From Azolla caroliniana (taxonomy: Eukaryota > Plantae > Polypodiophyta), in assembly GCA_043228905.1 (NCBI GenBank), contig JBHGNT010000016.1:13764001-13828000 (forward strand): a stretch of 64,000 nt of DNA, written 5' to 3'. The position numbers and the translations under genes are program-made. Below the pieces are notes generated by a model. The model was not told the origin of the DNA and did no database searches. It was given only the letters and a program-made list of their open reading frames with translations. This document shows positions 25,815-64,000 of this stretch, in pieces (the stretch's first letter is position 1; the number at the start of each line of letters is the position of its first letter).

Positions 25815-25953
25815 CTTTATTTGTTTTGGGCCAATGATTTGTACTGCCTGGGAGATAATGTAACTTAGCCCTTCTTCTCCTCCCCAAATATTCATTCGAT
25901 CCGTCTAGACAGACACACACCATTGATTGGGGATGCTTACTCTGCAATCAGCC

Positions 25954-41612: not shown

Positions 41613-44600
41613 GAGCATTAGCATGGTTTGCACCACTTCTCGAGAAGAAATCACCGTTGCTGGAGGATTTTGAAGCATTTGTTAAGGAGTTTCAAGCTAG
41701 TTTCGGAGACACCGACAGCACTAGGATGGCGATAAACAAGATTCGAAGCCTCCGACAAGGAGATCGTCTCGCGTCGGCTTACGCAACTGGTTTCCGTCTT
41801 TTGGCATGCGATATCCCTTGGGATAAGGCGGCCTTAATGGATCAATTCCATCAACGTTTGCGTAATGATGTCAAAGATCTTCTTCTTACTTTCCATGAAG
41901 ATCCGAAGTCTCTAACAGAGGCCATTAGTCGAGCCGTGCGATGTGATAATCTCCTATTTGAGCGACGCTCTGAGCGCCAACAAATGTTACGTCGCCAGCC
42001 AAAACAGATGTATGCTTCTGTAGTCGCAACGCCTCCACAAGTTTCCAGACCCATTACAAGGGATGGCCCAACTCCGATGGAAATAGAGACAACAGAACGT
42101 CGAGGGCCTTTATCAGATACTGAGAAGCAATGACGTTGAGCGCACCACCTATGCCCATATTGTGACGGTCAAAGACATATAGCTGTGAATTGTCCACATA
42201 AACCTAGACATCAAGTATAACAAGTAAGTGCACATGACATCCCTACTTCGAGTTCCATTGTTACTTCTAATAACATAAATAAGCCTAATAGTCCATGCCA
42301 TGAGAATAGATTCGATGTCTTGAGCCAATTAGAGGATGTGTTAAATGAGTAAGTCCGGCCAAAATAGGAGCCATTTGGTTGGACCATCCTAGATACGTAG
42401 AGTTAGTTCCTAGTTGTGGTTCCATTTCATCGAGTCAAGTGAGTAGAGTTTTTTCTGCACAAGTTGAGCTTACCACATCTACATGTCATCGAGTCCTAGC
42501 CTCTGCCCTCCTAGATTTTGGAGCCAACTCTTGTTTCATGGATCGTGAATTTGCATTGTCACAAAACACTCTTTTGAATATACTCCCGAACCCAGTAGCC
42601 GTAGGAGTCATTGATGGTCATCCCATAGCATCAGGTGATATAGTCGAGGAGTCTGAGCCAATTCGTATAGTTCTTGGCGATTTGGCAAGCATAATATCTT
42701 TCAACATTATTTCCAGTTCGGAACACCCAATATTTCTAGGTCTCCGTTGGTTTGAACTCCATAACCCAAAGATTGATTGGATGAAAAGGACAATTGAAGA
42801 GACCCAGGAAGAAAGAACAAAGTGTGCATCCCTCAACTCTCCAACACTTGATACTAGATCCCATAAGTTATCAACCATCTCTTTACGCCAATTACGTGAG
42901 GAAGGGGGGACCGAGGATATGTTCGTATTTGCAATAGTAGCAACTCCATCATCTACCTTACATGAAGGGGACATTAAACTACCAGAGAAATACAAAGAGT
43001 TCTCCGAAGTCTTTGATAAGGTGAAAGCCAATGTCTTTGATAAGGTGAAAGCCAATGTCTTTGATAAGGTGAAAGCCAATACATTGTCAGAGCATCAGCC
43101 ATACGACTTCCTTATTGATTTACAACCAGGGAAAGAACCTCCATGTGGCCCAATTTATAATCTCTCCCTTGTAGAGCTAGAGACTTTGCAAGAATATATC
43201 AACAAGAATCTCCCAAATGGATTCATTCGGCATTCTAGATCCCCTGTTGGTGCACCTATCTTCTTCGTTAAGAAAAACAATGGTCTCTTCGGTTGGTCGT
43301 GGATTATCGAGGGTTAAACAAAGTGACCATCTGAAATAGATATGCTCTACCATTAATCCCAAATCTTTTGAAACGTCTTAGTGGAGCAAAATATTTCACT
43401 AAATTGGACCTTCGTTGTGCATATAATCTAGTTCGGATTCATCCGGGGGATGAATGGAAGATTTCTTTTCGCACTCACTATGGACATTTTGAGTATACTG
43501 TGATGCCATTCGGTCTCACGAATGCACCTGCAGTTTTCCAGCTATGGCGAATGATATTTTTCGAGATTTTCTCGATATCTTCACTATAGTTTACGTAGAT
43601 GAAATTTTGATCTACTCGATGACCCAAAAGGAGCATGATGAACATGTTAATCAGGTACTACATCGACTACGAGAATATGGTCTCTATGCAAAATTAGAAA
43701 AGTGTAGTTTCAGCCAAAATCAAGTGGAATTTTTGGGGTATGTTGTATCATCAAATGGTATTTCTATGGACCCCATGAAGGTTCAAGCAATTTTAGAGTG
43801 GCAGATGCCCGTTTCAATGCGCGATGTGCAATGTTTTCTTGGGTTTGCGAACTTTTATCAGAAATTTATTAAAAATTATTCTAAGTTCATGCTTCTGCTC
43901 AATCAACTCACACACAAAAGTCAACCATTCATATGGAGTTCAAATGCAGCTGAGGCATTTGAAAGTTTAAAACGGGCGTTTACAACGACACCTATTTTAG
44001 CACATGTCGACCCAACAAAACGCTTCATCCTTGAAGTTGATGCATCCAATTTTGCACTAGGAAGTGTCCTATCGCAAATTGGAGATGACGGAGAGCTATA
44101 CCCTGTCACCTTTCATTCCCGAAAGTTTGAAGCTACAAAGATCAACTCCGAGATCCATGATAAAAGAACTTCTTGCAATCATGGATTCTTTTCAACAATG
44201 GCGACATTTTCTAGACGGCTCTTCTCAGTAGATCATTGTGTACAATGATCATAAGAACCTGACATATTTTCAAAATGCTCGAGTCTTGAGTCGACGACAA
44301 GCCCAGTGGGCGCAATTTTTGACCCACTTCGACTTTGTAATCATATATCGCCCTAGGATGCAGCAAGGCAAACCATATGAGCTTTCTCGACGCTCTTATA
44401 TGGAACTTCGTCCAGGGGAACCTACGTTTGAGCATCAAAAATAAATCCTTTTGGGTCCTAATCGCCTACAATTAATGGTAGTTAATGTCATAACAACACT
44501 TGAAGATTCCACTCTTCTTGATTCCGTTCGAGATCATATGGCCACTGATGAATTCGCCAAGGATGTTTTGGATCATATTGTCCTAGATCGTGCTTCTTGC

Positions 44601-44865
44601 TCGCAGTCGAAAACCCTTCATAATGATTATCGTCAGTTCTATTGGCATGGTGGTTTTCTATTTAGACAAAACCTATTGTATGTTCCTGATGGTCCCCCGC
44701 GACTACAAGTTTTACAACACTGCCATGACTCACCAATGGCTGGACATTTTGGAGTACGCAAAACTCTAGAATTAATTTCTTGACAATATTGGCGGCCTCG
44801 CCTTCGTCATTTTGTTGAGGAGTATGTTCGCAGATGTGATACATGTTGTTGATCAAAGAGTCCTC
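41613..44865 (+). mobile_element. Chromovirus (Tcn1-like) Ty3/gypsy internal region: gag, PR, RT, RH, start of INT
   Basis: Motifs [63 protein letters not shown] and HCHDSPMAGHFG. A 24-bp triplication encodes VFDKVKAN x3 (~43009-43080). Confidence 0.9.
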
Positions 44866-45141
44866 TGAAGAGAAATGCGCAAAATATCGCTCGGCCAGAA
44901 CCGAGTAGTAAAACACTTCTATAAGAATCAAACACAAAAATAGGAAGTGGAGAGTACACAAGAAAAATGACACAGGATATTTACGTGGAAAACCCTAATA
45001 GGAAAAACCACGGGAGCCCACAAACTCCAAACTATCACTATGAAGAGAAGGGGTACAATCAGAGACTCAGAACAACGACCTCGAGCTCTGTTTCTTCACA
45101 CAGTGGCGGTTACAACAAAGTATCGCTCTCTCCCTCTCCCT

Positions 45142-45172
<31 letters not shown>

Positions 45173-45423
45173 CCTCTCTCTCTCTCCCTCTCTCTCTCCC
45201 TCTCTCTCTCTCCCTCTCTCTCTCTGTACAATAGTTACAGCAATATGACAACAACACAAAACATACTCACACACACTAAAGTGATTGCCCTAACTCATAT
45301 TTATAGTTATTTGAACTTAGGGCTATTTACAAATATAACCTCAATGGGCTTATTCAAGGCATATTTACAAATCTATCTTCTCTTCCAGTTCTCACTAGGT
45401 CCACCGATCCGGTTTCTGGATCT
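44866..45423 (-). mobile_element. Part of a copia LTR, interrupted by the Athila-like element
   Basis: GATATTTACGTGGAAAACCC...AAAAACCACGG matches the U5 motif of the other copia LTRs. CT microsatellite at 45126-45224. Confidence 0.7.
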
Positions 45424-45925
45424 TGTTAATCCTTAGGGCTGGAAAATGGCCTAACACAGGGTGTCTCCTGAAGACACTTCACCAAAGGGGTGTTACGGCG
45501 AGATAACTTAAGACACAAGGATTAATTCGACTTAATTGGCTACTTAGCAATAAGGCATTCACTTAATACACACGTAAGATATAACAATTAATACAGAATG
45601 GTAATCAATATGTGAAGATAAAACAAGAAGCTTATATTAATTCTCCATTAAAGTTATACATTGTAACCGGGCCTTTATATAGGTCACCGGTGCTGCGTAC
45701 AAAACAGTGCCAACCGGCACCTGTTCGAAACCGGTCCGGATCCGGATCGGCATACCAATTCCGGTTCGTCCATTCACTACATAATTATAATCTACTTTAC
45801 TTAATTAAAATATATTCCGAAAAACCATCCCTTTCACATTCTGGTCTCTGCTCCTTTGCCGGCCGGGTAACACATGGCACGCCCGTGGGACAGTACCTTG
45901 TACGTCGAATCCCACTATCCGGCCC

Positions 45926-48880
45926 TTAGCCTTCATCCAAGATATCCAGAATACTCTGCACTAGGGTATCCAATGGTTGTTCGGAACTCTGTTGTTGTTG
46001 TTGCTACTATTGTTGTTGTGGCTGCTGTTGTGGCTGCTGTTGCTACGGTTGCGGCTGTTGTTGTGGCTCCGGCTCCTCCGACTATTGCTTCTTAGATGGC
46101 GTCTTTTCGGCTCGCGGTACCAGTGGTTGTGGCGGTGATTCCTTCGTTACTTGCTCCGCCGGATTTGACTCCGGTTGACTTGCCCCGGAATTGTCTCCGT
46201 TCGGTCCTTGCTCCGGTGATGGCTACTCATCGCTGAGGTTGACGATCGCCGCCTGCTTTGCTTCTTCTCTCCGTAGCCTGGTTCGTTCATAGCTTTCAAC
46301 TGGATTTGAGCATCCAATCGATCATCATCTAGCTGTGCTACAAGTTGTCAGACCACTGCTGACTGCTCCTCTGCCAGAGTTACAAAATCTTCGGCTAACT
46401 CATCTTTTACGGCGGTGAAGTCCTCCTTCGTTAGGATGTAGCAGTCGTCGCCATCCTTCTGCCGGTTTTCCGTGTCCGCCCGTAGCAGCTGGAGCTCGGT
46501 TGTGTGCTTTGCCCATTTGTCCCACCATTGCACGGAGCTCTCGTCAATCAAGCGTTTGGTCTTGTTTCTCCATGCCTGGACAATGAACTGGATCCACTCC
46601 AATCCCATCTTTGATTTGTCCTCTGCGGCTTGTCGTTCGTCCTTCAACTACTTGATCAGTGCCACCGTATCCACCTCCTGCTCCCGGTAATGTGACAATT
46701 GGGTTTGATAGGTGTTCTGCAGCCTTTGCAAGACCATTGTTTCTTTCCTTCTCTTCATAATGTTGCTTATGGAGCTCCATCCGTTCTTGCGTGGCTTCCT
46801 CCAACAACGTGGTTCCTTCAGCCCGTTCCTCCGCTAGCGCTATCTCAACTTGATGCACCTCCTGCCGGAGTTTGGCTATCTTTTCCTGCTGTTTCTTGTG
46901 CTCCGTATCCAGGTGCTTGTAGTCCCGGTGCAGGTGCTCAAAATCATCGGTCTTCTGCTTCAGCTTTTGGTTGAGTTGTCGGTGAGCGCGGTCTTCCCGA
47001 TCCTTCTGTTGACGGAGTTCTTCTTTAAGTCTTTCGATCTCTATTTCCGCCATCCGTCGGAGCTTCTCCTTTTCTTGCAGTGCCTTCTCTTTCTCCTCCT
47101 TCAGCTAGTCATAGGCCTAATGCCCTTTCCGCAGATTCTCTTATGCCCGACGGAGGTTCTCAACAGTCTTTCGTTGCTCTTCTTCTGCCGCTTTCTTCAA
47201 GTCCCGCTCTCGGGTGCGTAATGCTTCCTGTGCGGCCACTTCATCTCTTAATTCAGCAAGCTCTTTTGCTTACACTGCCATTATCTTCGGGATTGGTTCC
47301 GTCTCCGGGGTCTTATTGTTATGTACAGGTACCGATGCTTCTTTATTCTGTACATCTACCAGAGTCACTAGTGCTTGGAGCTGTGGTCCGGTTAAGGCCA
47401 TTTTGGCCAATTCTTCTGTGGTCAGGTCCAAGTCTTGTTCTAGGCTCCGGATCCTTGATCGGGCCGTCTCTAGTTCTCCGGTTGTGACAAGCAACCGGTC
47501 CATTTGCGCTTTCTCTTCCGCCTCTATGTAGTGTACCACTCCAACAATCTGTTCTCCAATCCACCGGAGCCATTGGCTGCCGGTGCCCTGTTGTTGCGTC
47601 TACCCGAAGGGTTGGCTGTTGGTGTCGCTGGCCAATGGTCGGTTTTGTCCGGTTGCGTTGAGCAGCAACTCTGGCTCTTGTTGGTGACCACTTTGCTATT
47701 GTGGTTGCGACTCCATTGGCCGCTCCGCCTCTGAATGTTCTTGGCCTGCCGATGGGGTAGGCAACTGTACTTCCGACGCTTGCATTTTGGGTCTTGCCGT
47801 ATCCTGACCCGCCGGTAGAGGTTGTTGTGCAGGGAGCTCTGTGATCGGTTCTATCCGAACTGGTTCCGGTTCCATCCTTGGTGCGGGCTGCTCAGTGCAG
47901 GGTACAGGCGCTCCATCCTTCTTTGGGTCCGAACGCTCCCCGGCATGTTCGGAGGTGCTTGCCTTCTAGCACCGTTGGAGGTGCTCTAACGGTTCCTCCT
48001 CCGCTTCCTCCTCCTAAGTCCCAATGTTAATTTTCGCTGCCAAGGGGTCCGACGCTTGTTGAACCGGTTGGCTAAGCCTGATCTTGATTGGCCGTACCGG
48101 TGGCTCCTCCTGCGTTTCCGCCTGCCGCTTCCTATTGGCGCGCTCCTTTGCCGCCTGGTCCATGCCGGCCGCCTTCCCTATGGTTGCCTTAGAAGCCAAC
48201 AGCTATTGCCATTTCGAGGCTGTTTTCGGGGTGCCTTCTGTTGTTCTTCCCCGCTTCGTGGTCTTGACGGGCTCGATAGGTGGTGCCAATAGGGTGAGCC
48301 ATTGCGCCACTGCCGTCCATATCTTTCGACCCGCCTTGCCTCTGACAGAGTCGGTGGCTGCACAGAGGCCATCCGCAATCAGTACCGCCCAATCCACCTT
48401 CACGCCTTCATATGTGGCTATGATTAAGCTGGCCCGGTTCTGAGGCATGCATGGGGGTCGAGGGTATACATGTCCAAATTCATGGAGCACCCGGGCAATC
48501 TCTCGAAAGAGTGGGTCTTCGTCGGCATGTGTCCGATAGGCCTTGCTGGCCAGAGAGTATTCCCCAAAATATTTTCAGAGTTGTTCCGGGGTAGGGTTGT
48601 CGATAGTGAAGATGCCCCCCTCCGGAAGGCCAATCAATGCATGGATGACCTCCTCCGTAATCAGCTCCGTGTCGATTTCTTTGACTATCTTCTCCGCCTC
48701 CCGGTACGGTGGCGCCTCCATGATTGTGAGGAAACCTTCTAACCCGTGTTGCCTTAGCCACTTCTTGGCTGCTTCAGAGAGTGCTTGGCAATCCATGGCT
48801 TCGTCGAGGTCGGTGAGCGCTGGTGACGGTTGTGTGTGAGGAGTCTCTGTGTGCGTGGGCTCGTGTCTGCTGATCTTCAA
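45926..48880 (-). pseudogene. Decayed ORF2 (extra ORF downstream of pol), homologous to 57947-61363
   Basis: ALSEAAKKWLRQHGLEGFL, RASLIIATYEGVKVDWAVLIADGL, AVAQWLTLLAPP and EIERLKEELRQQKDR align with ORF2 of the full-length element. Confidence 0.85.
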
Positions 48881-49869
48881 TCACCTGTTTGCATTTGTGC
48901 TCCTCTGTTCGCGAAATGTGAGGGTTTCTATGTGGCGGGGGTCTTCTTGTTGAATGTCGACGCTTGTTTTTTTCTTACCCGCACGTGTGCATGTCATGTA
49001 CTAAAATAGAATGGCGTGTCATGTGGCGGTGGTTTAATACCCTATGAATAGCCCACTACGTACCTTTTCAAAGTGCCTGTTCACTCCTTGTTTTTGCATG
49101 TGTCCGTTCACCCCTCGCCCTTGCATGATTTACTTCGATTTGAATTTTTATTTTTTATTTTTTTGTATTAAATTGTTTTGCTAATTCGCAACCGGTCCCA
49201 CTGGACCCCTATCCGGATTGTGGTCCTTGCCGGCCGCTGGACCGCTTGCCGTCGCTTCCGACTTACCGGTGTCGGGTTCTGTGTCGCCCTTCACTTGTTC
49301 AATTGGGTTTCTTGGCATGGGTCCATTGTATGTTTTGAGTCGGAACCCATTGACCCATTTACCCAAAACCTCACCGGCGAGTGTCCCTAATTGGTAGGAA
49401 CCGTTGAACTCACGCGTAATCCAGTATCGTCCGGTCCACCGAAACCGTAGCTTTCTCGGCATCATACCCATCCGGGTCTGGAACACGAGTACCGGCTTAC
49501 CGATTCCGAACATCTTTTCGTTCCCTTTTCGGTGACGATCCACGAACGCTTTCCTTCACCACTGCTCTAGTTCTAGCTGCATGATGCTGGCTAGCCGGTG
49601 TTCTTCCAATTCGCACAACGCGTTTAACCGGATAACTTCCAATTCCTTCTCATTTAGGCGTTCCCGAATCTGTATTCGTAAACTCGGTACCTGGAACTCT
49701 ACCGGCATCACTGCTTCCAATCCGAATGCTAGGCGGAACGGTGTTGTGCGAATACTTGTCTTATATGCCGTTCGGTAGGCCCAAAGTGCACTGTGCAGCT
49801 TTGTATCCCAATCCGTCCGGTTCTCATTGACGATTTTTTGCAGGATATTTTGTAGTGTTTTATTTGTTG

Positions 49870-51073
49870 TGTTGTATGTATGGCTGGACTAGCCGCAACA
49901 CAGGTGTCTATCCGACACTTCTCCAAAGGGGTGGTAGGGATAGGATGTTAATACACGCGTATGATAATTACACTTAAGCACAGACGAAGACAAGATCAAT
50001 AAGCATAAGCAAAACTATATTAATTCTTCGTCACTTCATTACAAAACATCGGATCCTTTTATAGGCATCCGGCCAGATTACAATCGGTGCTCTTAGGCAA
50101 CCGTTCACCGAAACCGAATCGGTTCGGATCTGGATCGGTTACAACTACCGGATCCGTCCCTCCTAATAATTCTATTCCTATTTCTATATTTATCCGATCC
50201 GACCTTGCTTTCCCATTTGCCTTCTCTGACCGGTCAACACATGGCACGCCCGTGGGAAAGTGCATTGCACTTCGAACCCACAATAGTGTTGTATGTATGG
50301 CTGGACTAGCCGCAACACAGGTGTCTATCCGACACTTCTCCAAAGGGGTGGTAGGGATAGGATGTTAATACACGCGTATGATAATTACACTTAAGCACAG
50401 ACGAAGACAAGATCAATAAGCATAAGCAAAACTATATTAATTCTTCGTCACTTCATTACAAAACATCGGATCCTTTTATAGGCATCCGGCCAGATTACAA
50501 TCGGTGCTCTTAGGCAACCGTTAACCGAAACCGAATCGGTTCGGATCCGGATCGGTTACAACTACCGGATCCGTCCCTCCTAATAATTCTATTCCTATTT
50601 CTATATTTATCCGATCCGACCTTGCTTTCCCATTTGCCTTCTCTGACCGGTCAACACATGGCACGCCCGTGGGAAAGTGCATTGCACTTCGAACCCACAA
50701 TAGTGTTGTATGTATGGCTGGACTAGCCGCAACACAGGTGTCTATCCGACACTTCTCCAAAGGGGTGGTAGGGATAGGATGTTAATACACGCGTATGATA
50801 ATTACACTTAAGCACAGACGAAGACAAGATCAATAAGCATAAGCAAAACTATATTAATTCTTCGTCACTTCATTACAAAACATCGGATCCTTTTATAGGC
50901 ATCCGGCCAGATTACAATCGGTGCTCTTAGGCAACCGTTAACCGAAACCGAATCAGTTCGGATCCGGATCGGTTACAACTACCGGATCCGTCCCTCCTAA
51001 TAATTCTATTCCTATTTCTATATTTATCCGATCCGACCTTGCTTTCCCATTTGCCTTCTCTGACCGGTCAACA
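49870..51073 (-). mobile_element. Tandem three-LTR mini-element (three 370-bp LTRs separated by two 47-bp spacers)
   Basis: LTRs at 49870-50239, 50287-50656 and 50704-51073 (period 417 bp), near-identical. Spacer on the minus strand: CTATTGTGGGTTCGAAGTGCAATGCACTTTCCCACGGGCGTGCCATG. TSD TGTTG at 49865-49869 and 51074-51078. Confidence 0.95.
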
Positions 51074-51736
51074 TGTTGACTCTGTTAATCCGTTGGCTTG
51101 CAGATAATAGGGAGTGCTCCATTTGTGCACCACCGCATAAAATGTCGTCAAACTTTCCACTATTTGCTCTAAGAAGTGCCCACCTTGGTCACTTATGAGC
51201 TCTATTGGACATCCATACCGGCACCAGATGCATTCATATAAAAATTTTGCCATGGATGCCGCGGTGTTATCGCATAGTGCTTTCGCTTCCACCCATTTTG
51301 TTGGCCGGTCAGAAGAGCAAGGACAAGTGGGAAGGCGGAATCGGATCGGATAATAGGAAGTAATAGTAGGATTATTATTCGGAGGGACGGATTCGGTTCA
51401 GTTGTACCGATCCGGATCCGAACCGATTCGGATGTCGGTTGCCTAAGCGCACCGATTGTAACCTTGCCGGATGCCTATAAAAGGATCCGATGATTTGTAA
51501 AGTGTTTTGACGGAAGTAATACAATAGTAATTATTGTGTATTTATCTGTATCTCGTATTGTTTGCCGTCCGTGCTTAATTGTAATCATATTATGCGTGTA
51601 ACCTAGCATCCAATCCTTACCACCCCTTTGGAGAAGTGTCGGGTAGACACCTGTGTTGAGGCTAGTCCGGCCAGACAGACAACACTATTTTGGCGACCAC
51701 GATTCCTACAAAGTGCAGAGGACATCCGGGGGATGG

Positions 51737-54700
51737 ATGTCTAGAACAAACGACGACCACATCACCGAACGAGGGAGACGATACACCGAACGCGAGCAAC
51801 GACGGGAAGCCCTGCAACAAGCCGTCAACGAGATCCGGCGGGATCGGTCATTCTCCAAAACTCTTCGGAGAGTCGCAGAAGAAGCACTGCAGTTCCGGGT
51901 TCTGCAAATCCCCGACGAAGGTAGTAGCATAACAAGCCTGCAAGAGGCAGAAACGATACTGCAGACGCTCGCCGCGGGCGACGGGGACTCGGAAGCATTC
52001 ACAACACTTGAGGCGGAGTCGGAAAGCGACGGAAGCGTTGCATCCCGGTATAAAAGCAGCCACGACACACCAAACGACCGGGAGGACGAGGGGTCGGAAG
52101 ACTCAGTAACACCGGCGCCAGAGGAAGAAATAACCCTGGAATTCGGTGATCGGCAACCGCCGAGGAAGGCTGACCGGATACCGACAACAACCGCGAGGGA
52201 ACCGAAGGAGCGGATACCGACAACACCCGCGGAGGAACCAACGGACCGGACACCGGTAACACCCGCGGAGGAACCAAAGGTTCTCACACCAACGCCAACA
52301 ACGGACAGAGAATGGAGGGAACAGGAGAGTCAGTTGGACGACACGATGCCGTACCCATACCCAAAGTACCGGGATGAGGCCGACGTGGAGGCACACGTGT
52401 ACGCATTCCTCCAAACATGGGAAGCCAACCATATCTCCCAAAGACTGACGGAGCCCGAAGCCGAACGATCCAAAATCGCCGAATTCGGCATAACCTTAGA
52501 AGGACCGGCGGCCCAATGGCACACAAAGCACTTACCAGGCACCTTTGCCACATTCGATGCCTTGAAGGCCAGATTCCTCAGGTTTTTTCACAGACAATTT
52601 GAGCAAAGGGAATTGGTCGGGCAGTTCTACACCACCCGGCAGGAAGAGAACGAGACTATGCCACAATTCATCATTCGGTTCCAGACCCTGCACAACCAAC
52701 TGACAAGAGCACCACCCGAAGACGAAGCCAAAGCAGTCTTTCTGGCCGCACTGAAAGAGCCACTTTGAACAATGTGCGGAGTCCTTGATTTCCAAACCAG
52801 CACAATGGAGCAAGTTATTGATCGGGTTTTAGAAATGGACAAGACTAGCCCCTTCTTGACGATGGGGATGTTACACCGGGCACTCCCAAAAGAGGAAGAC
52901 CTGAGGTTCCAACAGGCCTTACAATGTACAACATGCCTAAATTCGGGGCACTCAACAGTAGACTGCACCCTGCGGACACAATGTGTGATCTGCAACTCTT
53001 GAGCCCATACAACGGACCGATGCGAATACAACCTGTTAAATCGGCAGGCAGCACCGGTTCGACACATAGAACCGCGCAATCAGAACCCGGACGAGGATCG
53101 ATTCCGGAGAGACGACCGCTACCAACGGGAGCGCGGTAACAGATACGCTGATAGAAGACGCGACAACTATGACCGAGAGGAGAGACGCAGAGATAGCTAC
53201 CCCCGGGACCGGTACGACAGAGACGAATCCCCGGAAGACGACAGACGCGGAGAAGAGAGGCGACAAGGATACGCTGATAGAAGACGCGACAACTATGACC
53301 GAGAGGAGAGACGCAAAGAAAGCTACCCCCGGGACCGGTACGACCGAGACGGAGCCCCGGAATACGACCGACGCGGAGAAGAGAGGCGACAAGGGAACCG
53401 AAATTTCCGACGGAATCAGAAGCGTGGATTTTTCCGAAGAGAGGAACGTCGGGAGGCAGCAAGGAATGACAACCCGGTATCCGTACCGGATAACCGAAAA
53501 ACCGAAGACGACCGCCGGAGCATACCCACCCTCCAAACCAGGGACAAAGGAGAAACGAGCAACAGTCACAAGGTGTACTGTTATTACTGCCGCAAGGAAG
53601 GCCACTATAGTAACCAAGGCCCAAGCAAAAGCTATGACAAGCAGCCGGAAGTCAACATGGTTACAGCCGAAATAACAGAAGTATAGCAGGTCACAACCCG
53701 GTCAAAGGGAAAGACCGCCGAGTGGGAAGCCCAGGAGGCAATCAGAAAACAAGCGACACAATGGATCAAGGAGGCCAATGAACAGAATGCGGCAGAAGTA
53801 AGAGACCAAAATATGCCAAAAGACGAAGAAATCATACAGCCAGGAGAAAACCCGACGTGGCAAGCGCTACAGGACTGTCAAATTGTGCTGCCGTTAGCAC
53901 GACTACTACAGTTAGTGCCACGATTTACGGCAGACCTACAGGCATCCGTCAGCAAACCGAAGCCGATGCCATCACCGGCATTCTTCTCCAACCCGGAGGA
54001 AGGACCAGCGGTGGTCGATACAAGTAGCCCGACGATCACGACAATCGTGAAAGGAAAGGAAATTGCTGGAACGATTATTGACGGAGACTTCGGGTAAATG
54101 TCATCAGCCAACAGACATGCAACGACCTGGGCATCCGGGAATGGGAACCATGGCCCTTCTGGTTACGCATGGCGGATACTAGCTCAGTCCGACCGACCGG
54201 GCTTATCCGAGATTTGGAAATCACGATCGGAGGCCACGTATTCCGGATATCGGCCGTAGTGCTGCAGCTGAATGTACAAGGCGCGTACCCCCTACTGCTA
54301 GGACGACCGTGGCTGCGAACGGCGCATATCAAGCAGAACTGGCAAAAGAACATGATCACATTCCGGCGAGGGAAAACAAAGGTACGAGTAACGACGCAAC
54401 CACGGGTGATCACCAGTAAGGAAGCAACTCCATTGTATGCGGAAAGCATTAACATGTTGGAGGGATTACCGGACGAGGAAGTCGAGCGGTACCTCGAGGA
54501 ACACCCACGAATCGTCCCACTATTTGAGGTGGATATCACGGCGGCAGTAGAACCGTACATTACGATGCCGGAAGAACCGGACCAAGCGGCGATCCGGGAA
54601 CTACGACAAGCGCAGGAATCCCTAGAGAGGGAAATGAAGATATCCCAGAGGGTAAAAGCATCCCAGCTCGAGGAGGTGGACCTCGGCACAGCAGACAAGC

Positions 54701-57696
54701 CCCGACCGGTAAATGTTGCAAAGGAATTGCCGAAGGAAGAAAAGAAGGCAATGGTAGCATTGTTAACAGACTTCAAGGATGTGTTCGCGTGGTCGTACGA
54801 AGACATGCGAGGGTTGGACCCCCAGCTCTATCAGCACCAAATTCACCTAAGTACGGATGCGAAACTGATTGCTCAACGCAGGTACCGGATGAATCCGAAT
54901 TATGCGGCAAAGGTGAAGGAGGAAATTGATAAGCTCCTCCGGGTCGGATTTATCCGACCGGTCAAGCAGGCAACCTGGCTGAGTCCGATAGTGGTGGTCC
55001 CGAAAAAGAACGGAAAAATCCGGGTATGCGTGGACTACCGAAAACTAAATGCCGCGACAGTGACCGATGCGTTTCCACTACCATTTACGGACGGGGTGTT
55101 AGATGCGGTAGCCGGGCACGAAGTTTACAGCTTCCTGGATGGATTTAGCGGCTACAACCAAATACGAATGAACCCGGCCGACCAAGAGAAGACAGCGTTC
55201 GTGACGGAATGGGGAGTGTTCGTCGCGGTCGTGATGATGTTCGGACTAAAGACGGCTCCAGCGACCTTTCAAAGGATAATAATGGAAATTTTCGGGGAAT
55301 ATATCCCCGGTTTTATGCAGGTCTTCCTTGACGATTTCGCGGTCTACAACCGGCACGGAGAGCATCTCGATCACCTCCGGCTATGCTTGGAGAAGTGCCG
55401 CGAGTACCGATTGAGCCTGAATCCGGCCAAGTGCGTCTTTGGAGTGGCAAGCGGCAACTTGCTAGGGTACGTGGTGAGTAAGGAAGGAATCGCGGTAGAT
55501 CCGGATAAAGTCAAGGCGATTCTCGATGCACCAGCACCAAGTAACGCAAAGGCTTTAAGCAGGTTCTTGGGCCAAATAAGGTGGCATAGCCGAATGATAC
55601 GGCACCTCGCGGACTTCGCTACACCGTTACATACCGTCGTACATAGGGTACCCTTCCTATGGGCAGAGACGGAGGAGGAAGCCTACAAAGCGTTGAAGGT
55701 CATGCTGTCGCAAGCTCCGGTGGTGCAACCGCCGGATTGGAGTAAAAGCTTTCACGTCTTCGTCGACGCGTCGGACGTAGCAATCGGCAGCGTTCTGATG
55801 CAACTCACAGAGCCGAAATGGTACCGACCGGTGTACTACGCAAGCCGGAAACTCTCAAAAGCCGAACGGAATTACTCTACGACGGAACGCGAGGCATTGG
55901 GAATGGTGTATAGTGTCACAAAGTACAGGCACTATCTGCTCGGAAGGAAGTTTTCCTTCCATGTCGACCATTCGGCACTACTCTACCTGGTCTCGAAGGC
56001 ATCCCTGACGGGAAAAATTGCACGGTGGACACTGCTACTACAGGAATTTGAATTCGACATTTTCCACCGACCCGGGGCGCAACATGCGGTAGCGGACTAT
56101 CTAAGCCGACTTGAATCCAGAGAAGCAGGGGACGGCGTCCAGGATGAGTTTCCCGACGCCGAATTGTTTCGGATCATGACGAAACCGGCAACGGATACAA
56201 CGGTAGCCGACGAAGACACATGGCTAACTGAGATGCACCAGTTCCTGAGCACCGGAGTTCCCCCGGAAAACATGGACCGCGATGAAAGGAAAAGGGTAGC
56301 AGTAAGAAGTAGACATTTCTGCTTGGTTGGAGACACCCTCTATCACAAGGGGGCAGATGGCATCTGGAGACAAGCAGTGCAGAGCGATGAGAAGGATCTA
56401 ATCCTCAGGGAAGCCCACTGTGGAATTGCCGGCGGGCATTATGCCGGCGACGCAACCGCTCGGAAAATATGGCAGAGCAGACTGTGGTGGCCGACCACCC
56501 TAAAAGATGCCGTGAAGTATAGCAGAGAATGCGATTTGTGTCAACGACTGGGCCAACCCACAGAGCAGGCCCGGATGCCACACCACCCGGTCTTGCCCTT
56601 AGAACCGTTTCAAAAGTGGGGGTTGGACTTTGTCGGTCCCTTCAAACCACAAGCAATGCGAACCGGAAATCAGTATGTCATAGTGGCGACCGACTATTGC
56701 ACCAAATGGGTAGAAGCAAAGGCCTTACGGGACAACACGGCCGCTTCCACGGCAAAGTTTCTGTACAAATGCATATGGTGCCAGTATGGATGCCCGATCG
56801 AGCTTATAAGTGACCAAGGAGGACATTTTCTCGGGCAGGTAGTAGAAAGCCTGACGTCATTTTACGCGGTGGTACATAAAAAGAGTACACCCTACTACCC
56901 TCAAGCCAATGGACTAGCGGAATCAACGAAAAAAACTCTGCAGAACATCCTACGAAAAATCGTCAACGAGAACCGGACCGACTGGGATATGAAATTGCAA
57001 AGCGCGCTATGGGCGTACCGAACAACGTACAAAACCAACATCCGGACAACCCCGTTCCGACTAGCATTCGGGTTAGAAGCGGTCATGCCGGTAGAATTCC
57101 AGATCCCCAACTTACGGATTCAGGTAAAGGAGCACTTAAGTGAGAACGAGTCCGAACGAATCCGACTGGCAACGCTGTTGGAATTAGAGGAAAACTGAAT
57201 AGCCAGCTTACTACAACTCGAATTGGAGCAAAGGAGGAGAAAAGCCTTCGTGGACCGACATCGGCGTGGCAATGAAAAGGAGTTCGAAGTCGGGAAACCG
57301 GTGCTATTATTCCAGACAAGGATGGGGAACATGCCGGGAAAGTTGCGGTTTCGATGGACCGGACCGTTCTGGATCACCAAGGAGTACAATGGGTCGTATC
57401 AGCTCGGCACGTTGTCTGGAGATGTCATCGGCAAATGGGCAAATGGATTTCGGCTAAAGCCATATAAAGGAAATATGCCAGCCAACCCGTTCAAGCGAAA
57501 CCCGGAAATCCGGCAAGATGAGGAACCGACACCGACAGACGCTGCTGAAGACATTCGGACCGAGGAAGAACCGACACCGATACTGACGAGGACCATCCCG
57601 GAAAACCGACAAAAGGATCCGGTATCCACACGAACCGACCCGAACAAATCGGGGGGGGACCAGCAAATGACGTGGTCCAAGCAAAAGAAAAAATAA
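51737..57696 (+). pseudogene. gag-pol polyprotein (gag, zinc knuckles, PR, RT, RNase H, integrase) with a few point lesions
   Basis: Motifs QCTTCLNSGH, CYYCRKEGH, IIDG, CVDYRKLN, FLDDF, VDASD..EREAL..DH, HCGIAGGH..CDLCQ, WGLDF..ISDQG..NGLAE and WTGPF. Stops at 52766, ~53000, ~53684 and 57196, and a frameshift at ~54092. No additional archaeal-type RNase H between RH and INT. Confidence 0.93.
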
Positions 57697-57946
57697 AAAT
57701 AAAAAGAAAAAAATAAAATAAATATATATATATATATATATATATAAATAATAATAAAATAAAATAAAAAATAACGTGGGCAAAATCGACGCGAATCATC
57801 GTAATGATGGGGAGATCACAAGAGGTGGGAGCGCCACCATGCAACGAAGAGGCGCCATGCATTAAAGAAGGACGTGTGCAGACTTGCTATTTAAAGCAGG
57901 GAACGTGGGCACTCACACGCGGCAAATAAGAAAGGACATACTAATT

Positions 57947-60900
57947 ATGGCGGGAGAGGAACATGCGCGGGAAACGAAAAAGGACGGCTCGAGGCACAAC
58001 CCACTATATAAGACACAGGCCTGCGAAGGGATCACTTTTTACGAATTTTCCTACATACAGGCGCAGAAGCACAGAAGAGCGACCCGACGCACAGAGCACA
58101 CACAACGTGATCCCGAACAACAGGCAGCAGACGAAGAATTCGAAGCAATGGTACTGTCGGAAGAGGCACGCCAATGGATGAGGGAGAACGGGTTAAAAGG
58201 ATTGCTGCGGATCGCCGACGCTCCACCACACGCAGAACCAGAGCAGGCGGCAGCATCGATCGATATATCAGAAGTCACGGAAGGAGCGGTGCAGGCACTC
58301 ACGGGGATCAAAGCAGGAGGACTGCAAACAATCGAAAACTCTTCCAGTGAAATCCTGTTCGAATATTTCGGGGAATACTCTATCAGCAGCAAGGCGTACC
58401 GAACGCAGGGCGGAGAGAACCTGTTGTTCGGAGAAGTGGCCCGCGCTATGATGGAATACGGATTCGTGAATCCCCGTCCCCCAGCCATAGCCAAGTACCG
58501 GGCAGCATTCTTGATAGCAGCGTACGAGGGCTTACAAATAGACTGGCTCCATTTCATAACCGAAGGATTGAAGGAGGCCATCAAAAATCTGGTGGAAGGA
58601 AAAAAGCCATGGGCCGGGATCGCACAATGGCTAACGGTGTTAGTCCCACCGGTACTCCCCATCACACAAAAGAAAAGAGGTCGGCAGGAGACGACGCCGA
58701 AAAAGGTCACAAAGCGCCGACAGATCTTGGAGAAACACACCCCCGGATGGACCCCGCAAGAAGCAGAACAGCAGGGGGAAGGACCATCCCGACAGCCACA
58801 GGAACCGGCAACAAAGACAAAACCGGCAGGTAAAGGCAAAGGGAAAGCGGCCGAGGAGGAACCGGTACCAAAGGTCTCTAGACAAAAGGTCCGTCTGGTA
58901 ACCGCACCGGAGGAGGAAACTGAAACAGAAGACTCATCCGAACCACTGGTAAGACTCCCAGCAAGACAAGGTCGGGAGAAACGGGCGAAAGGACCGGCTC
59001 CACCAGTAGCCGAGGCGGAAACAGCACCGGAACCCGTACCCAGGGAAGCAGCACCGACACCGGTTGGGGCGGACTTCAGAAAACCGGTCATCCCAGAGAA
59101 GAAGAAGGAACGAGTGCCGGAGCCGGAGCCAGAGAAGAGGCCGGAAAATCAGCCTGGCTTAAGTGAGCAAGGCCACCCCGAAATCGGAAGCACAAAGCCA
59201 CAATGGCTAAGATGGATTTCGGAGCAGTTATCGGGAGTAGCAGACCAGTTAGAGAAAGAAGAAACGTGTCGGCAACAGCTGACGCATACAACAACTCAGG
59301 AGTTGGTCGCGCTCCGAACACAGATCAAGGAAATGCAAGGGGATCTGTTGCAGGCAAGGGAAGGAATCCAACAAGCACAAGCTGTCACCGAGCCGGTCGG
59401 GACAACAAGGAAGCAACCAGAACCGGAACCGGAACCGGTAGCCTTGCAAACTGGCCCTGAGACCGAAAAAATAATAGAAACCTTACGAGAGGAGTTACAA
59501 GCTCAGGAGGCATTAAGGGAAAGAGAAAGGGAGCAGCGGAAAGCGGTGGAGGATGACAAACGAAAAATGGAAGAAGGCCTCCGGAAAGGTCGAGCCGCTA
59601 ATGACCGACTGCAAGAAGAAAAAGAGAAGCTACAGAAGGAGAAGGACCGACTACGTCGACATGCCGAACAAGAGATAGAACGACTGCAGGAAGAACTCCG
59701 ACAACAGAAGGACCGGGACGATCGGTTAAGAGCTCAGGCAACCCAACGCCTGAAGCAGAAGACGGAGGACTTCGACCGTCTCTACCGAGATCACAAGCAG
59801 GCCGAGTCGGACAACAAAAAACGAGCAGCAGACTACGACCGGCAAATAGAGAAGCTGAAAGAGCAGCTCAAAGAGACCCGATTAGACCTGGCTAAGGCGA
59901 TGGATGAGGTCAGTGCCAACAAGGAAGCATTGTCGGCGGAAATAGCCCAAGCAACGGAGAGAAGGAAGGAATTAGAGGCGCTAAGGCGGGAAAAGCTGGA
60001 CCTGACCAAGATCAGGAATGAAGAAAAGGAAAAATCGACCTTCACGATCAGCAAACTGCAGAGTACCTATGAAAAGCAGAAAGCAGATTACGAGGCCCAG
60101 GCTCAGATAATGGCCGACATATAGCTCGGCTGCCTGTTGTGACGCCTGAAGCAGAAGACGGAGGACTTCGACCGTCTCTACCGAGATCACAAGCAGGCCG
60201 AGTCGGACAACAAAAAACGAGCAGCAGACTACGACTGGCAAATAGAGAAGCTGAAAGAGCAGCTCAAAGAGACCCGATTAGACCTGGCTAAGGCGATGGA
60301 TGAGGTCAGTGCCAACAAGGAAGCATTGTCGGCGGAAATAGCCCAAGCAACGGAGAGAAGGAAGGAATTAGAGGCGCTAAGGCGGGAAAAGCTGGACCTG
60401 ACCAAGATCATGAATGAAGAAAAGGAAAAATCGACCTTCACGATCAGCAAACTGTAGAGTACCTATGAAAAGCAGAAAGCAGATTACGAGGCCCAGGCTC
60501 AGATAATGGCCGACATTATAAAACGGGAAAGGAAGGAAAAGTAGGAAGCTTATGCGCATGCTAAGGCAGGAGTTGACCGGATCAAGCTCATCATGTCAGG
60601 ATGGAGTACCCGAGCTCAGGCAAGTATCAACGAAAGTACGGAAAAGCTATGGAAGGAGTGGTCACAACAGGCAGCCGAGCTGCAGACACTCCGAGCGGAT
60701 GCCGAGAATCGGAAGAAGACCGGTGACAGGTTCTACAAGATGGATGAAGAAAGTATCGTCGCCATTCGGGAGGAATTGTCGGAGGATTTCTACACTTTAG
60801 CAGAAGAACACCTCAAAGAAATCCGAGGGTTGGTAGAGAGGTTGGATGACGGGCAGCTCGCAACTCAGTTGGAGTTGGAGAGATACGAGCAGGACCGGTT

Positions 60901-61363
60901 ACGACAGGAAGCTAAGGGAAGAACGACGCCAACCAGTATTGGTGAGGGAACGCGACCGGATGAAGATGAACCAACCGACACCGAACAACCCCGACAAGGA
61001 ATACCTGAAGACGAACTTGAAGAAGAGCAGGAGCGGACCGATGCCGGAGAAGAAGAAGAGCTGAGACCGGAAGACACCAGAGCAGAGGAAGGAGGCATAT
61101 CAAGTTGACCAGTCGAGACCGGAGAAAGCGACACCGGTAACAGAACAGAGCCAGGAACGGAGGGAGAACAGGAAGAACCCGGACGAAGCGGTGAGGAAGC
61201 ACCGGCACCACGGAATCAAGCAGAGCCGGAGCAGAAAATTTTTATGGAACAGCCTACCCAACAGGAGGTCGGAGACCAGGCAGGCAAGGAACAGGAACGG
61301 AAGGAAAAAGCACCACTTGACACTATCGAGCAAAGTGTGCTCGTTATTTTGGAGGAAGACTGA
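57947..61363 (+). pseudogene. ORF2 of the Athila-like element: globular N-terminal domain, P/E-rich linker, long coiled coil, acidic tail (~1000 aa ancestral)
   Basis: 746-aa ORF 57884-60124. After removing the 396-bp duplication it continues in frame through 60593-61108 to LEED* at 61363, with two CpN-type stops. The start codon is uncertain. Confidence 0.82.
59746..60516 (+). repeat. 375-bp tandem duplication with a 21-bp inverted templated filler
   Basis: Copies at 59746-60120 and 60142-60516, with three differences seen. The filler 60123-60143 is the reverse complement of 60661-60681. Confidence 0.93.
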
Positions 61364-61371
61364 GGCCGGGA

Positions 61372-61411
61372 GTGGATTCGAAGTGCAAGGCACTTTCCCA
61401 CGGGCGTGCCA
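61372..61411 (+). other. tRNA-Arg-like 3'-half module at the PPT position
   Basis: GTGGATTCGA-AGTGCAAGGCACT-TTCCCACGGGCGTGCCA, then TG, then the LTR TGTTG. Homologous modules at 6435-6475(+), 7807-7846(-), 45875-45915(-), 50242-50281(-) and 50659-50698(-). Confidence 0.85.
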
Positions 61412-62986
61412 TGTGTTGGCCGGTCAGAAGAGCAAGGACAAGTGGGAAGGCGGAATCGGATCGGATAATAGGAAGTAATAGTAGGATTATTATTCGGAGG
61501 GACGGATTCGGTACAGTTGTACCGATCCGGATCCGAACCGATTCGGATGTCGGTTGCCTAAGCGCACCGATTGTAACCTTGCCGGATGCCTATAAAAGGA
61601 TCCGATGATTTGTAAAGTGTTTTGACGGAAGTAATACAATAGTAATTATTGTGTATTTATCTGTATCTCGTATTGTTTGCCGTCCGTGCTTAATTGTAAT
61701 CATATTATGCGTGTAACCTAGCATCCAATCCTTACCACCCCTTTGGAGAAGTGTCGGGTAGACACCTGTGTTGAGGCTAGTCCGGCCAAACAGACAACAT
61801 ATTTCGTGCAGTAATCCGTAGTGACGATCACATACCGGTTGCCGGTTCTCATTGCCGGTGGTTTGAAAGGACCGACAGAATCTAGCCCCCATTTCTGAAA
61901 TGGTTCTAATGGTAGCACGGGCTGGTGAGGCATTCTGGCTTGTTCGGTTGGTTGGCCCATTCGTTGACATAGGTCGCATTCTTTAGCGTACCGGACTGCA
62001 TCCTTCAATGTTGTCGGCCACCATAGTCCACTCTGCCATATTTTCCTTGCCATAGCGTCTCCGGCATAATGTCCTCCAGCCACACCGCAGTGTGCTTCGC
62101 GCAATATTATTTCCTTTTCGTCGTTGCGCACTGCACGCCGCCATATGCCATCTGCGCCTTTGTGGTACAGTGTGTCCTGTAATAGACAGAAGTGTCGGCT
62201 TTGAACCGCAAAGCGTTTCCTTTTGTCTCTATTCATCTCCTCCGGAGGTAAGCCTGTGCTCAGGAATTGGTGCATGTTGGTGAGCCACTTTTCTTCCTCT
62301 ACGACTGAACTATCTGTTGTCGTTTCTGCTGTGAATCTAAACAGCTCTGCATCAGGAAAGTCGTCTGGTACTCCGTCACCGGTTTCGCTGGAATGCAACC
62401 AGCTTAAATAGTCCGCTACCGCATGTTGTATGCCGGGTCGGTGGAATATCTCGAACTCGAATTCTTGAAATAGTAACGTCCACCGGGCCAGATTACCGGT
62501 GAGTGATGCTTTGGACACCAAATAGAGGAGCGCCGAATGATCTACGTGAAAGGAAAATTTCCTTCCCAACAGATAGTGTCTAAACTTGGTGACATTGTAG
62601 ATCATACCCAAGGCCTCCCTTTCCGTTGTGGAGTAATTCCGTTCCACTTGGGACAGCTTCCGGCTGGCATAATAGACTGGCTGGTACCATTTCGGTTCTG
62701 TCAATTGCATCAGTGCACTCTTGATTGCGATGTTGGACGCGTCAACGAACACATGGAACTCTTTTGACCAATCCGGGGGTTGCACCACCGGCGCTTGTGA
62801 CAACAGTACTTTTAGTGCCCGGTAAGCCTGGTCTTCTGTGTTCGTCCATCGGAACGGTGTCCGATGTACCGCGGCATGCAGTGGTGTAGCCAGGTCTGCC
62901 AAATACCAGAGCATTCGGCTATGCCACCGAATTTGTTCTAAGAACCGGCTTAGTGCCTTTGTCGTGGCTGGTGCGGGTGCCTCCCG

Positions 62987-64000
62987 AAGGTCAATTTACT
63001 CTGTCGGTGATCTATACTCGGGGTACGACCAATTCTAGCTAGCCGTGGAGAGTAGGGATATCACGACGATGCGAACTCCTCTCGGTCTAGTGCGGATGTG
63101 TACCCTACCACAAGGAGGGACGAATTCGGTGGCGCATATGGTGAACACAATGAACAAGGTGCTGAGGGACTGCATCCCGGAAATCACCATGCCATTCTTG
63201 GACGACATCCCGATAAAGGGGTGTCCAGTGGAAGATGCGGACGAGACTGTCGGGCCGGATGGATGCCGGAGGTTCGTCGTGAACCACATCAACGATTGCG
63301 AGAAGGTGCTGCAGAGGCTCGAGAGAGCACGACTCACCTTCTCCGAAGAAAAATCTGCGTTCGGGCAGTTAGAGATCTTGGTGGTCGGACACCTATCCAG
63401 GTTAAACGCAAACTCTGGGGTATCATTTTGGCGGCGAAGGCCGATAAAGACTACCTGATCGGGACAGAGGTAATAATTGAGATGGACTGCCTGCCGATTC
63501 TCGGCATGGTTTCTAGATGCGTGACGCCGGACCTAGTAATGCTTAGGTGGATAACGTACATCAAGTCCCTGAATCCAAAGATATGACACATTTCTGGAAA
63601 AGACAATGCCATGGCCGACATGCTCTCAACGGCGAGGTTCGAAAACGAGGACGGCGTGGTATCGGAGGACGAGGAAGTCGGCGTAGATTTCTTCGAGGCG
63701 GCATACGTAACAACCAAAAAGGGGAGCACTCCGGTGCTTAACGAATTCGACGAGAGCAAGTATGACGGGGAGTGGCTCCAGATCGGTGGGCTCCTGAAAA
63801 CAATGACACCGGACGTGGCATGGACGAAGGAAGAGACCAACCGGATCCGGAAGAAAGCGTACCGATTCTTCCTTCGGGACGGGTACATATGGAAGCACCC
63901 GAAGAAGAGGGATGGCATCCCGCTCCGAGTGGTGGTGAAGGAGGAACAGGAGGAGTTGCTGGAGGCCTACCACGAGAGTCCCTGGGCCGGACACTGCGGA
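62987..64000 (+). mobile_element. Ty3/gypsy RT-RNase H fragment of a divergent (fungal-like) lineage, running off the window
   Basis: DLYSGYDQF..RDITTMRTPLGLVRMCTLPQGGTNSV..PFLDDIPIKG, EMDCLPILGM and RWITYI. Internal deletion at ~63395. No LTR at the left junction. Confidence 0.85.

What the first reader, a model, noticed from the sequence alone, without database searches (positions are those of the whole stretch)
49870..51073. Minimal three-LTR tandem element whose only internal sequence is the tRNA-like module
Seen: LTR-47bp-LTR-47bp-LTR with near-identical copies, bounded by a single 5-bp TSD (TGTTG) inside a host integrase gene. The spacer has no normal 5' PBS and no PPT, only CTATT plus the tRNA-like module. 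Inference: either one module is enough for mobilisation (for example via multimeric or circular intermediates, as in tandem-array TRIMs or retrozymes), or the array arose in place by TATT-microhomology deletion followed by unequal LTR recombination. The first case would define the minimal cis requirement of the system.
Basis: partly seen in the sequence, partly recalled or inferred. Interest (0 to 1): 0.75.

Follow-up and report, generated by a model that had tools for sequence, protein, structure and literature searches.

The report
Dead-end triple-LTR retrotransposon copying accident
Three near-identical end-repeats of a plant jumping gene sit in a row joined by a 47-base tRNA-like piece, but the family normally also carries a first primer site and long coding regions, so this is likely a one-off copying error rather than a tiny mobile element of its own.

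Summary
The array is real as described: three 370-nt LTRs (1-3 differences), two identical 47-nt spacers and one exact 5-bp TSD inside an older integrase gene. The 'minimal mobile element' reading is not supported. In contigs of four public runs the same LTR family is abundant, carries a normal 5' primer-binding site, and has the module preceded by the end of a long ORF. No listed contig spans the LTR-CTATT|GTGGG junction; in the best-constrained sample it can be at most about 1-5% of the PBS-bearing form. None of 97 modules in metagenome loci follows an LTR end. The proposed TATT microhomology is absent from the parent. Instead the deletion starts 1 nt before the PBS and ends at the first base of the module's stem, with T-x-TGG shared. 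That fits a premature second-strand transfer during reverse transcription (inferred), followed by one extra unit (unequal exchange or a small circle; not separable). The unit has one of two priming sites, so it is likely dead on arrival. The PPT-replacing tRNA-like module is the novel part, but it belongs to the parent lineage and other notes of this scan already cover it. The genome-wide junction count could not be run.

The parts
49865..49869 (.). target-site duplication TGTTG, left copy
49870..50239 (-). LTR (last in sense order), 370 nt, 2 private changes
50240..50241 (-). 2-nt gap (TG) between the module's CCA and the LTR start
50242..50281 (-). tRNA-3'-end-like module: T-stem arm, TTCGA, inserted hairpin, CCCAC, acceptor-like strand, CCA; at the PPT position
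50282..50286 (-). CTATT: first 5 of the 6 nt linking LTR to PBS in the parent family; the deletion junction is at its 3' edge
50287..50656 (-). middle LTR, 370 nt, majority state at all three variable sites
50657..50703 (-). second spacer, identical to the first (CTATT + module + TG)
50704..51073 (-). LTR (first in sense order), 370 nt, 1 private change
51074..51078 (.). target-site duplication TGTTG, right copy
49305..51298 (-). integrase-coding region of an older element (host H) interrupted by the array
51299..61799 (+). full-length sister element A: 386-nt LTRs (2 differences; 78.6% to the array's LTR), CTATTT + PBS TGGCGACCAC at 51691, gag, pol (RT-RH-INT), extra ORF, module 61372-61411, no PPT; comparison only

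Best explanation
The array is a three-LTR, two-spacer insertion that lacks the 5' primer-binding site and is likely a single dead-end by-product of an abundant Ty3/gypsy family, likely made when a minus strand stalled at the base of the module's stem and paired too early with the plus-strand strong-stop DNA. Shown: the parent family is LTR-CTATT(x)TGGCGACC (PBS)-long coding region-module-TG-LTR; the array keeps only CTATT and the module; the two breakpoints lie 1 nt before the PBS and at the module's first paired base. Inferred: the 3' end of the stalled minus strand (complement of TGTGG) paired at 4 of 5 positions with the linker-PBS start (TTTGG) of the strong-stop DNA and was extended, which gives exactly CTAT-T-G-TGGG. 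Inferred: a third LTR was added at or soon after insertion, by unequal LTR exchange or by one more turn round the 417-nt circular intermediate; the family's integrase made the single TSD. With only one of the two priming sites the unit would not be copied again.
For: Family form: contigs joining this LTR to a normal PBS have depth 2233 (X1), 3711 (X2), 1003 (X5), and the same loose end is seen in X4; contigs matching the module exactly stop at 50282 (4292, 4535, 910, 479), and loose ends there show unrelated letters beyond; LTR contigs in X2 are about twice as deep (7600-8787). No listed piece spans the junction in 4 of 4 runs; residual depth at 50282-50285 is 24 in X1 (1.1% of the PBS contig) and 201 in X2 (5.4%). 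0 of 97 modules in 95 metagenome loci have an LTR end, or LTR end plus PBS, within 200 nt upstream; the exact junction is in 0 of 95 loci. L030 and L093 carry this LTR at 98-99% with the module, in L030 directly after a 1053-codon open frame. Both breakpoints at these edges has a rough post-hoc chance of 35 in 5151 even given that 100 nt or less is kept. No self-priming complement longer than 4 nt. A second internally deleted element in the window (5879-7005) also ends its deletion close to the module but keeps a PBS-like site. L3I2 arrays from one insertion are common in plants (PMC11899658, abstract and Discussion; PMC4717578, passages).
Against: The genome could not be searched, so uniqueness is not shown. 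Logan contigs drop rare paths between high-copy sequences, only 32 of 429 pieces were listed, X1 and X2 are one sample, the bound is weak in X5 (401, 40% of the PBS contig) and could not be computed for X4. None of the listed flank pieces is the window's own host copy (7-17 differences each), so the runs may lack this locus. Short-read metagenome assemblies collapse such arrays, and the 95 loci appear to be one series of assemblies. Only 1 nt of exact microhomology exists, so ordinary end-joining repair at a hairpin after insertion can give the same junction. The three private changes do not tell an RT origin from unequal exchange. The base at the mismatched PBS-linker position is inferred from element A and one mismatch in contigs, not read directly.
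Confidence: 0.55

Rival explanations
1. A full-length element inserted here, later lost its whole interior by a DNA break repaired with 1-nt microhomology next to the module hairpin, and then gained a unit by unequal LTR recombination. Also a one-off, non-mobile relic.
For: Single TSD; LTR copies differ by only 1-3 nt; unequal exchange is a proposed route to tandem LTR arrays (PMC11899658 Discussion; PMC7215508 passages).
Against: Needs both ends of an approximately 10-kb deletion to hit a 6-nt linker and the module edge (rough chance 0.7% even if conditioned on a short remnant), and two rare events within about 0.2-0.5 Myr (assumed rates). The middle LTR shares none of the 3 private changes with either neighbour; a late crossover could give that only with a further later change.
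Confidence: 0.22
2. The PBS-less unit is a real low-copy mobile element: the module serves as the sole tRNA site (for example as a PBS on an antisense or circular RNA, 2 nt from the LTR end) and the parent's enzymes insert monomers and multimers.
For: Intact TG...CA ends and a perfect TSD; identical spacers; read on the + strand the module is a PBS-shaped TGGCACGCCC 2 nt from the LTR end; retrozymes give multimers from circular RNA (PMC4918200, abstract and passages).
Against: No second locus in the window, in 95 loci or among listed contigs; on either strand one priming site is missing; no ribozyme or other Rfam match; the other short derivative in the window keeps a PBS-like site.
Confidence: 0.1
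3. Same RT accident, but the multimer itself was made in one cycle: the 417-nt plus strand closed to a one-LTR circle, the minus strand rolled round it, and a host tRNA re-primed the plus strand at a newly made module copy, which a PPT-primed element could not do. (A sub-case of the best explanation; about half of its weight.)
For: Star-like LTR differences (2, 0, 1) and identical junctions fit three copies of the same age; template switching during reverse transcription is a proposed route to tandem arrays (PMC7215508).
Against: No cDNA or circle data; depends on tRNA priming of the plus strand, itself untested; unequal exchange fits the same three changes.
Confidence: 0.25
4. The third LTR is an assembly artefact of a two-LTR element.
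For: High copy identity; no long read available; the junction is not seen in the runs laid.
Against: All three LTRs differ from one another at distinct sites; flanks are colinear with an exact TSD; the window has no N.
Confidence: 0.05

Closest known systems
Tandem LTR-retrotransposon arrays (Morales-Diaz et al. 2025, PMC11899658; abstract and Discussion read)
   Same: Alternating LTRs and internal regions sharing internal LTRs, one TSD, one insertion; origin by LTR recombination or during retrotransposition left open
   Different: Here the internal region is 47 nt, with no PBS, no PPT and no coding sequence
TRIMs and tandemly arrayed TRIMs, L3I2 (Gao et al. 2016, PMC4717578, passages; definition in Kojima 2024, PMC10886601, passages)
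   Same: Short, non-coding, L3I2 layout, 5-bp TSD, derived from an autonomous element by internal deletion
   Different: TRIMs have a PBS and a PPT and form multi-locus families; this has neither signal and no second locus was found
Retrozymes (Cervera et al. 2016, PMC4918200; abstract and passages)
   Same: LTRs of about 350 nt, Ty3/gypsy-type ends, multimers
   Different: No hammerhead (Rfam), no PBS or PPT, internal region 47 nt rather than 600-1000
Helenus TRIMs (Kojima 2024, PMC10886601; passages)
   Same: Non-autonomous LTR element with tRNA-derived sequence
   Different: Helenus has the tRNA-like sequence inside the LTR and keeps PBS and PPT; here it is a 3' tRNA fragment outside the LTR at the PPT position
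Retroviral deletion proviruses from errors in plus-strand transfer (Pulsinelli and Temin 1991; recalled, not read: searches found no text)
   Same: Recalled: deletions that start at the LTR/PBS border in a single replication cycle
   Different: Plant Ty3/gypsy; the acceptor is a tRNA-like module; array of three LTRs
Non-chromovirus Ty3/gypsy, Athila-like side (Neumann et al. 2019, PMC6317226; passages) - for the parent family
   Same: gag, RT-RH-INT order, extra ORF, 5-bp TSD, non-Met PBS, no chromodomain or archaeal RNase H Pfam hit in the 1038-aa pol frame
   Different: tRNA-like module instead of a PPT; closest named pol hits are Marchantia and Riccia proteins at about 46%; no tree was built

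Membership tests
TRIM / TA-TRIM | two or more LTRs with a short non-coding interior and a TSD | tested here: met
TRIM / TA-TRIM | PBS after the 5' LTR | tested here: not met
   LTR is followed by CTATT then the module; the parent has CTATT(x)TGGCGACC
TRIM / TA-TRIM | PPT before the 3' LTR | tested here: not met
   longest purine run 3 in the last 20 nt; the module sits there, as in the parent
TRIM / TA-TRIM | dispersed copies with different TSDs | tested here: inconclusive
   junction not in listed contigs of 4 runs or in 95 loci; genome not held
Retrozyme | hammerhead ribozyme in each LTR | tested here: not met
   no hammerhead match up to E 10 on 49860-50340 or E 5 on 44000-64000
Retrozyme | PBS (tRNA-Met) and PPT boxes | tested here: not met
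Retrozyme | circular or multimeric RNA | not testable with these tools
   no RNA holder listed
Helenus | tRNA-like sequence inside the LTR, with PBS and PPT | tested here: not met
   module is outside the LTR; ARAGORN 0 genes
Tandem LTR-RT array (L3I2) from one insertion | alternating LTR and internal units bounded by one TSD | tested here: met
Tandem LTR-RT array (L3I2) from one insertion | unit number polymorphic between haplotypes | not testable with these tools
   no long reads or second assembly
Ty3/gypsy non-chromovirus (parent family) | RT-RH-INT order, no chromodomain | tested here: met
   Pfam on element A pol frame 54082-57195; A is a sister family with 78.6% LTR identity
Ty3/gypsy non-chromovirus (parent family) | placement in a REXdb lineage by RT phylogeny | not tested
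   no reference set held; only best hits seen

The most novel reading that the evidence does not exclude
The 417-nt LTR-plus-module unit is a low-copy mobile element that needs only one tRNA site: a small circle is copied by rolling, a host tRNA re-primes at every new module copy, and the parent's integrase inserts multimers. It would be the first LTR element with neither PBS nor PPT and would directly support tRNA priming of the second strand.
Probability: 0.1. Interest if true: 0.8.

Novelty: new variant of a known kind. Interest (0 to 1): 0.36.

Why it matters
As a relic it is modest: L3I2 arrays are common. Its use is as a fossil of reverse transcription in a lineage that has a tRNA-like module instead of a PPT. 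Both breakpoints fall at the expected ends of cDNA intermediates, which predicts a minus-strand pause at the module's 5' edge and more such junctions genome-wide; that is a cheap test bearing on the open question of how these elements start the second strand. It does not define the minimal cis requirement; the short element at 5879-7005 (PBS-like site plus module, 84 nt) is the better candidate for that.

Tried and rejected
Whole-genome junction search: no genome held. ARAGORN and Rfam find no tRNA or ribozyme in the unit. RNA: no RNA holder listed. Folding the 417-nt unit as RNA gave z = -2.0, 4 of 100 shuffles as stable: not remarkable. Self-priming by the module: longest complement 4 nt in the unit, 6 nt in element A: rejected. 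TATT microhomology: seen only before the module of another family (6437), not in the parent: rejected. tRNA isotype: a phage tRNA-Arg(TCT) (L097) matches the module in three blocks, but a phage tRNA-Glu (L096) matches nearly as well and both were found with a module-derived pattern, so the isotype is not fixed here; 'Arg' for module and PBS is recalled, and PMC4724089 (one passage) labels the same PBS start R or W. A looser module pattern in viral contigs gave 2 matches with no LTR context: chance. Literature: searches returned 0 papers; searches listed none describing a PBS-less LTR array or a tRNA fragment at the PPT position (titles and abstract starts seen); subscription journals are not covered. 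PMC6317226 supplements held as text (17,418 characters) had no hit for the PBS motifs; its large tables may not be fully held. PMC12312487 (passages) had nothing relevant. Earlier scan notes: no note on another PBS-less array among those shown (at most 8 shown per look-up, of 41-99 that fit).

Full report
Observation. The window holds three 370-nt direct repeats at 49870-50239, 50287-50656 and 50704-51073, period 417. They differ at three sites (two private to the left copy, one to the right), the two 47-nt spacers are identical, and TGTTG flanks both ends. The flanks encode consecutive integrase residues (875-949 and 949-1038 of the neighbouring pol), so the array is a clean insertion with a 5-bp duplication. 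Distinct differences between all three copies argue against an assembly duplication, but no long read was available.

Orientation and context. A full-length element (A, 51299-61799, + strand) lies 220 nt away. It has 386-nt LTRs that differ at 2 sites and are 78.6% identical to the array's LTR in the opposite orientation, so the array's sense strand is minus. A reads LTR, CTATTT, PBS TGGCGACCAC, gag, RT-RH-INT, an extra ORF, then a 40-nt module ending CCA, 2 nt, and the 3' LTR. The closest named pol relatives are liverwort proteins at about 46%. The host is a land plant; other scan notes say probably a fern, which I did not test. Four more modules lie in the window, each 2 nt before an LTR start (about 6430, 7805, 45873, 61372).

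The module. It looks like a tRNA 3' end (GTGGG TTCGA ... TCCCAC GGGCGTG CCA) with a hairpin inserted after TTCGA; a phage tRNA found with a module-derived pattern matches in three blocks (circular, and isotype not fixed). A metagenome scan gave 95 loci with 97 matches (two loci are the same contig). In an alignment of the window's module and the 39 distinct ones with a 15-nt insert (other insert lengths left out), the inner hairpin has changes on both sides at 3 of 4 pairs (15 cells against 3.7 shuffled; 0 of 500 shuffles, but 199 of 500 reach the count of 3 pairs); the outer stem shows no compensatory change, and its 3' side was fixed by the pattern. Related sequences inflate such counts. The module occupies the PPT position, where the plus-strand primer normally ends (PMC12789967, passages). 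The likeliest role is plus-strand priming by a host tRNA or by the element's own tRNA-like RNA; this is inference, and many earlier notes of this scan say the same, which is not independent support.

Is the minimal unit a family? The genome is not held, so I used contigs of four public runs (three samples) and the metagenome loci. The LTR is abundant: contig depths 8787 (X2), 2108 (X4) and 1772 (X5) against 10-63 for listed contigs of individual host-element variants, very roughly 150 LTR copies (the tool warns that depth is no copy number). On the junction stretch, contigs continue from the LTR either into a normal PBS (depth 2233, 3711, 1003 in X1, X2, X5; loose end also in X4) or cover the module and stop matching at 50282 (4292, 4535, 910, 479), with unrelated loose letters beyond. 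No listed piece crosses the junction, though a unique junction contig would be about 59 nt and longer than those listed; 32 of 429 pieces were shown. Subtracting listed contigs from the summed depth at 50282-50285 leaves 24 in X1 (1.1% of the PBS contig), 201 in X2 (5.4%) and 401 in X5 (40%); X4 could not be computed. So the junction is not a major form in the X1/X2 sample. Low copy numbers are not excluded, and none of the listed flank pieces is the window's own host copy, so these plants may lack the locus. In the metagenome loci, 0 of 97 modules have a window-type LTR end or an LTR end plus PBS within 200 nt upstream; self-comparison was possible for 76 and found only two different copies in one contig; the exact junction is in 0 of 95 loci. 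L030 and L093 carry this LTR at 98-99%, and in L030 the module follows a 1053-codon open frame homologous to A's extra ORF. The parent is therefore a long element with PBS and module.

How it arose. The 5' breakpoint is 1 nt before the PBS and the 3' breakpoint is at the first paired base of the module; the two sides share T-x-TGG (TTTGG against TGTGG; the middle base on the PBS side is inferred from A and from one mismatch near the contig end). A rough post-hoc figure for both ends landing there is 35 of 5151, even given that at most 100 nt are kept. These are the places where cDNA intermediates are expected to end: the strong-stop plus strand at the PBS, and a minus strand paused at a stem. 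If that minus-strand end pairs with the linker-PBS start and is extended, the product reads CTAT-T-G-TGGG, as observed; extension of the plus strand from TGG would give a T at that position instead. This is a premature second-strand transfer (inferred; a retroviral precedent is recalled but could not be read). It gives LTR-module-LTR. The third LTR came from unequal LTR exchange or from one more turn round the small circular intermediate; both routes are discussed for tandem arrays (PMC11899658 Discussion; PMC7215508 passages), and three private changes cannot separate them. LTR divergence suggests about 0.2-0.5 Myr at assumed rates of 1.3e-8 to 5e-9, like A.

Can it move again? A sense transcript has no PBS, and the module's 3' end has only a 4-nt complement in the unit. 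An antisense transcript would have a PBS-shaped site but no second-strand site. There is no ribozyme. The other short derivative in the window (5879-7005; LTRs 85.7% alike, 84-nt interior, flanks CGAAG/CGGAC) keeps a PBS-like site before the module. This fits a need for both sites, though that element's own mobility is unproven.

Comparison. It has the L3I2 shape of TA-TRIMs and tandem LTR arrays (PMC4717578 passages; PMC11899658) but fails the PBS and PPT tests for TRIMs, retrozymes (PMC4918200) and Helenus (PMC10886601). My searches listed no paper on a PBS-less array or on a tRNA fragment replacing the PPT; subscription journals and some supplements are outside them.

Verdict. Real structure, most likely a unique non-mobile relic (about 0.8 over the best explanation and the DNA-repair rival), with an RT-accident origin at 0.55. 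A mobile one-site element stands at about 0.1. Interest 0.36: a known kind of array whose breakpoints give a testable clue to an unusual parent lineage.

Noticed in passing
window 5879-7005: TRIM-like element: two LTRs of about 520 nt (85.7% alike), 84-nt interior with a PBS-like TGGCACATACGGTG and the module, flanks CGAAG/CGGAC, apparently inside a copia gag remnant (read by eye). Better candidate for the minimal two-site element; related LTRs in L043/L066 have a longer interior.
   Followed up: partly
window 51299-61799: Young full-length PPT-less element (LTRs 384 of 386 identical, TSD CATTT/TATTT) with a 752-codon extra frame without Pfam match and internal tandem duplications of 126 and 396 nt; inserted 220 nt from the array in the same host integrase region.
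   Followed up: partly
L076 1188-1745 (minus orientation) vs window 48000-48560: A related LTR in a metagenome contig is also inserted in an H-like element, hinting at preferred nesting inside relatives.
   Followed up: no
L025 1548-1639: The module's 3' part is repeated just inside the LTR start (local duplication).
   Followed up: no
window 16661-17124: Array of about 8 near-palindromic 51-nt units, matching itself on both strands.
   Followed up: no
window 25927-28826: B-lectin, weak PAN-like and protein-kinase domains in two consecutive frames: an S-domain-type receptor kinase gene or pseudogene among retroelements.
   Followed up: no
window 23322-24221: 299-codon frame with DUF7869 (E 4.6e-47), probably transposon-related.
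   Followed up: no
window 7559-7846 and 9794-10024: Another module followed by an LTR-like start; a second copy of that LTR (86%) lies 2.2 kb away, just after a tRNA-Met-type PBS motif of another element.
   Followed up: no
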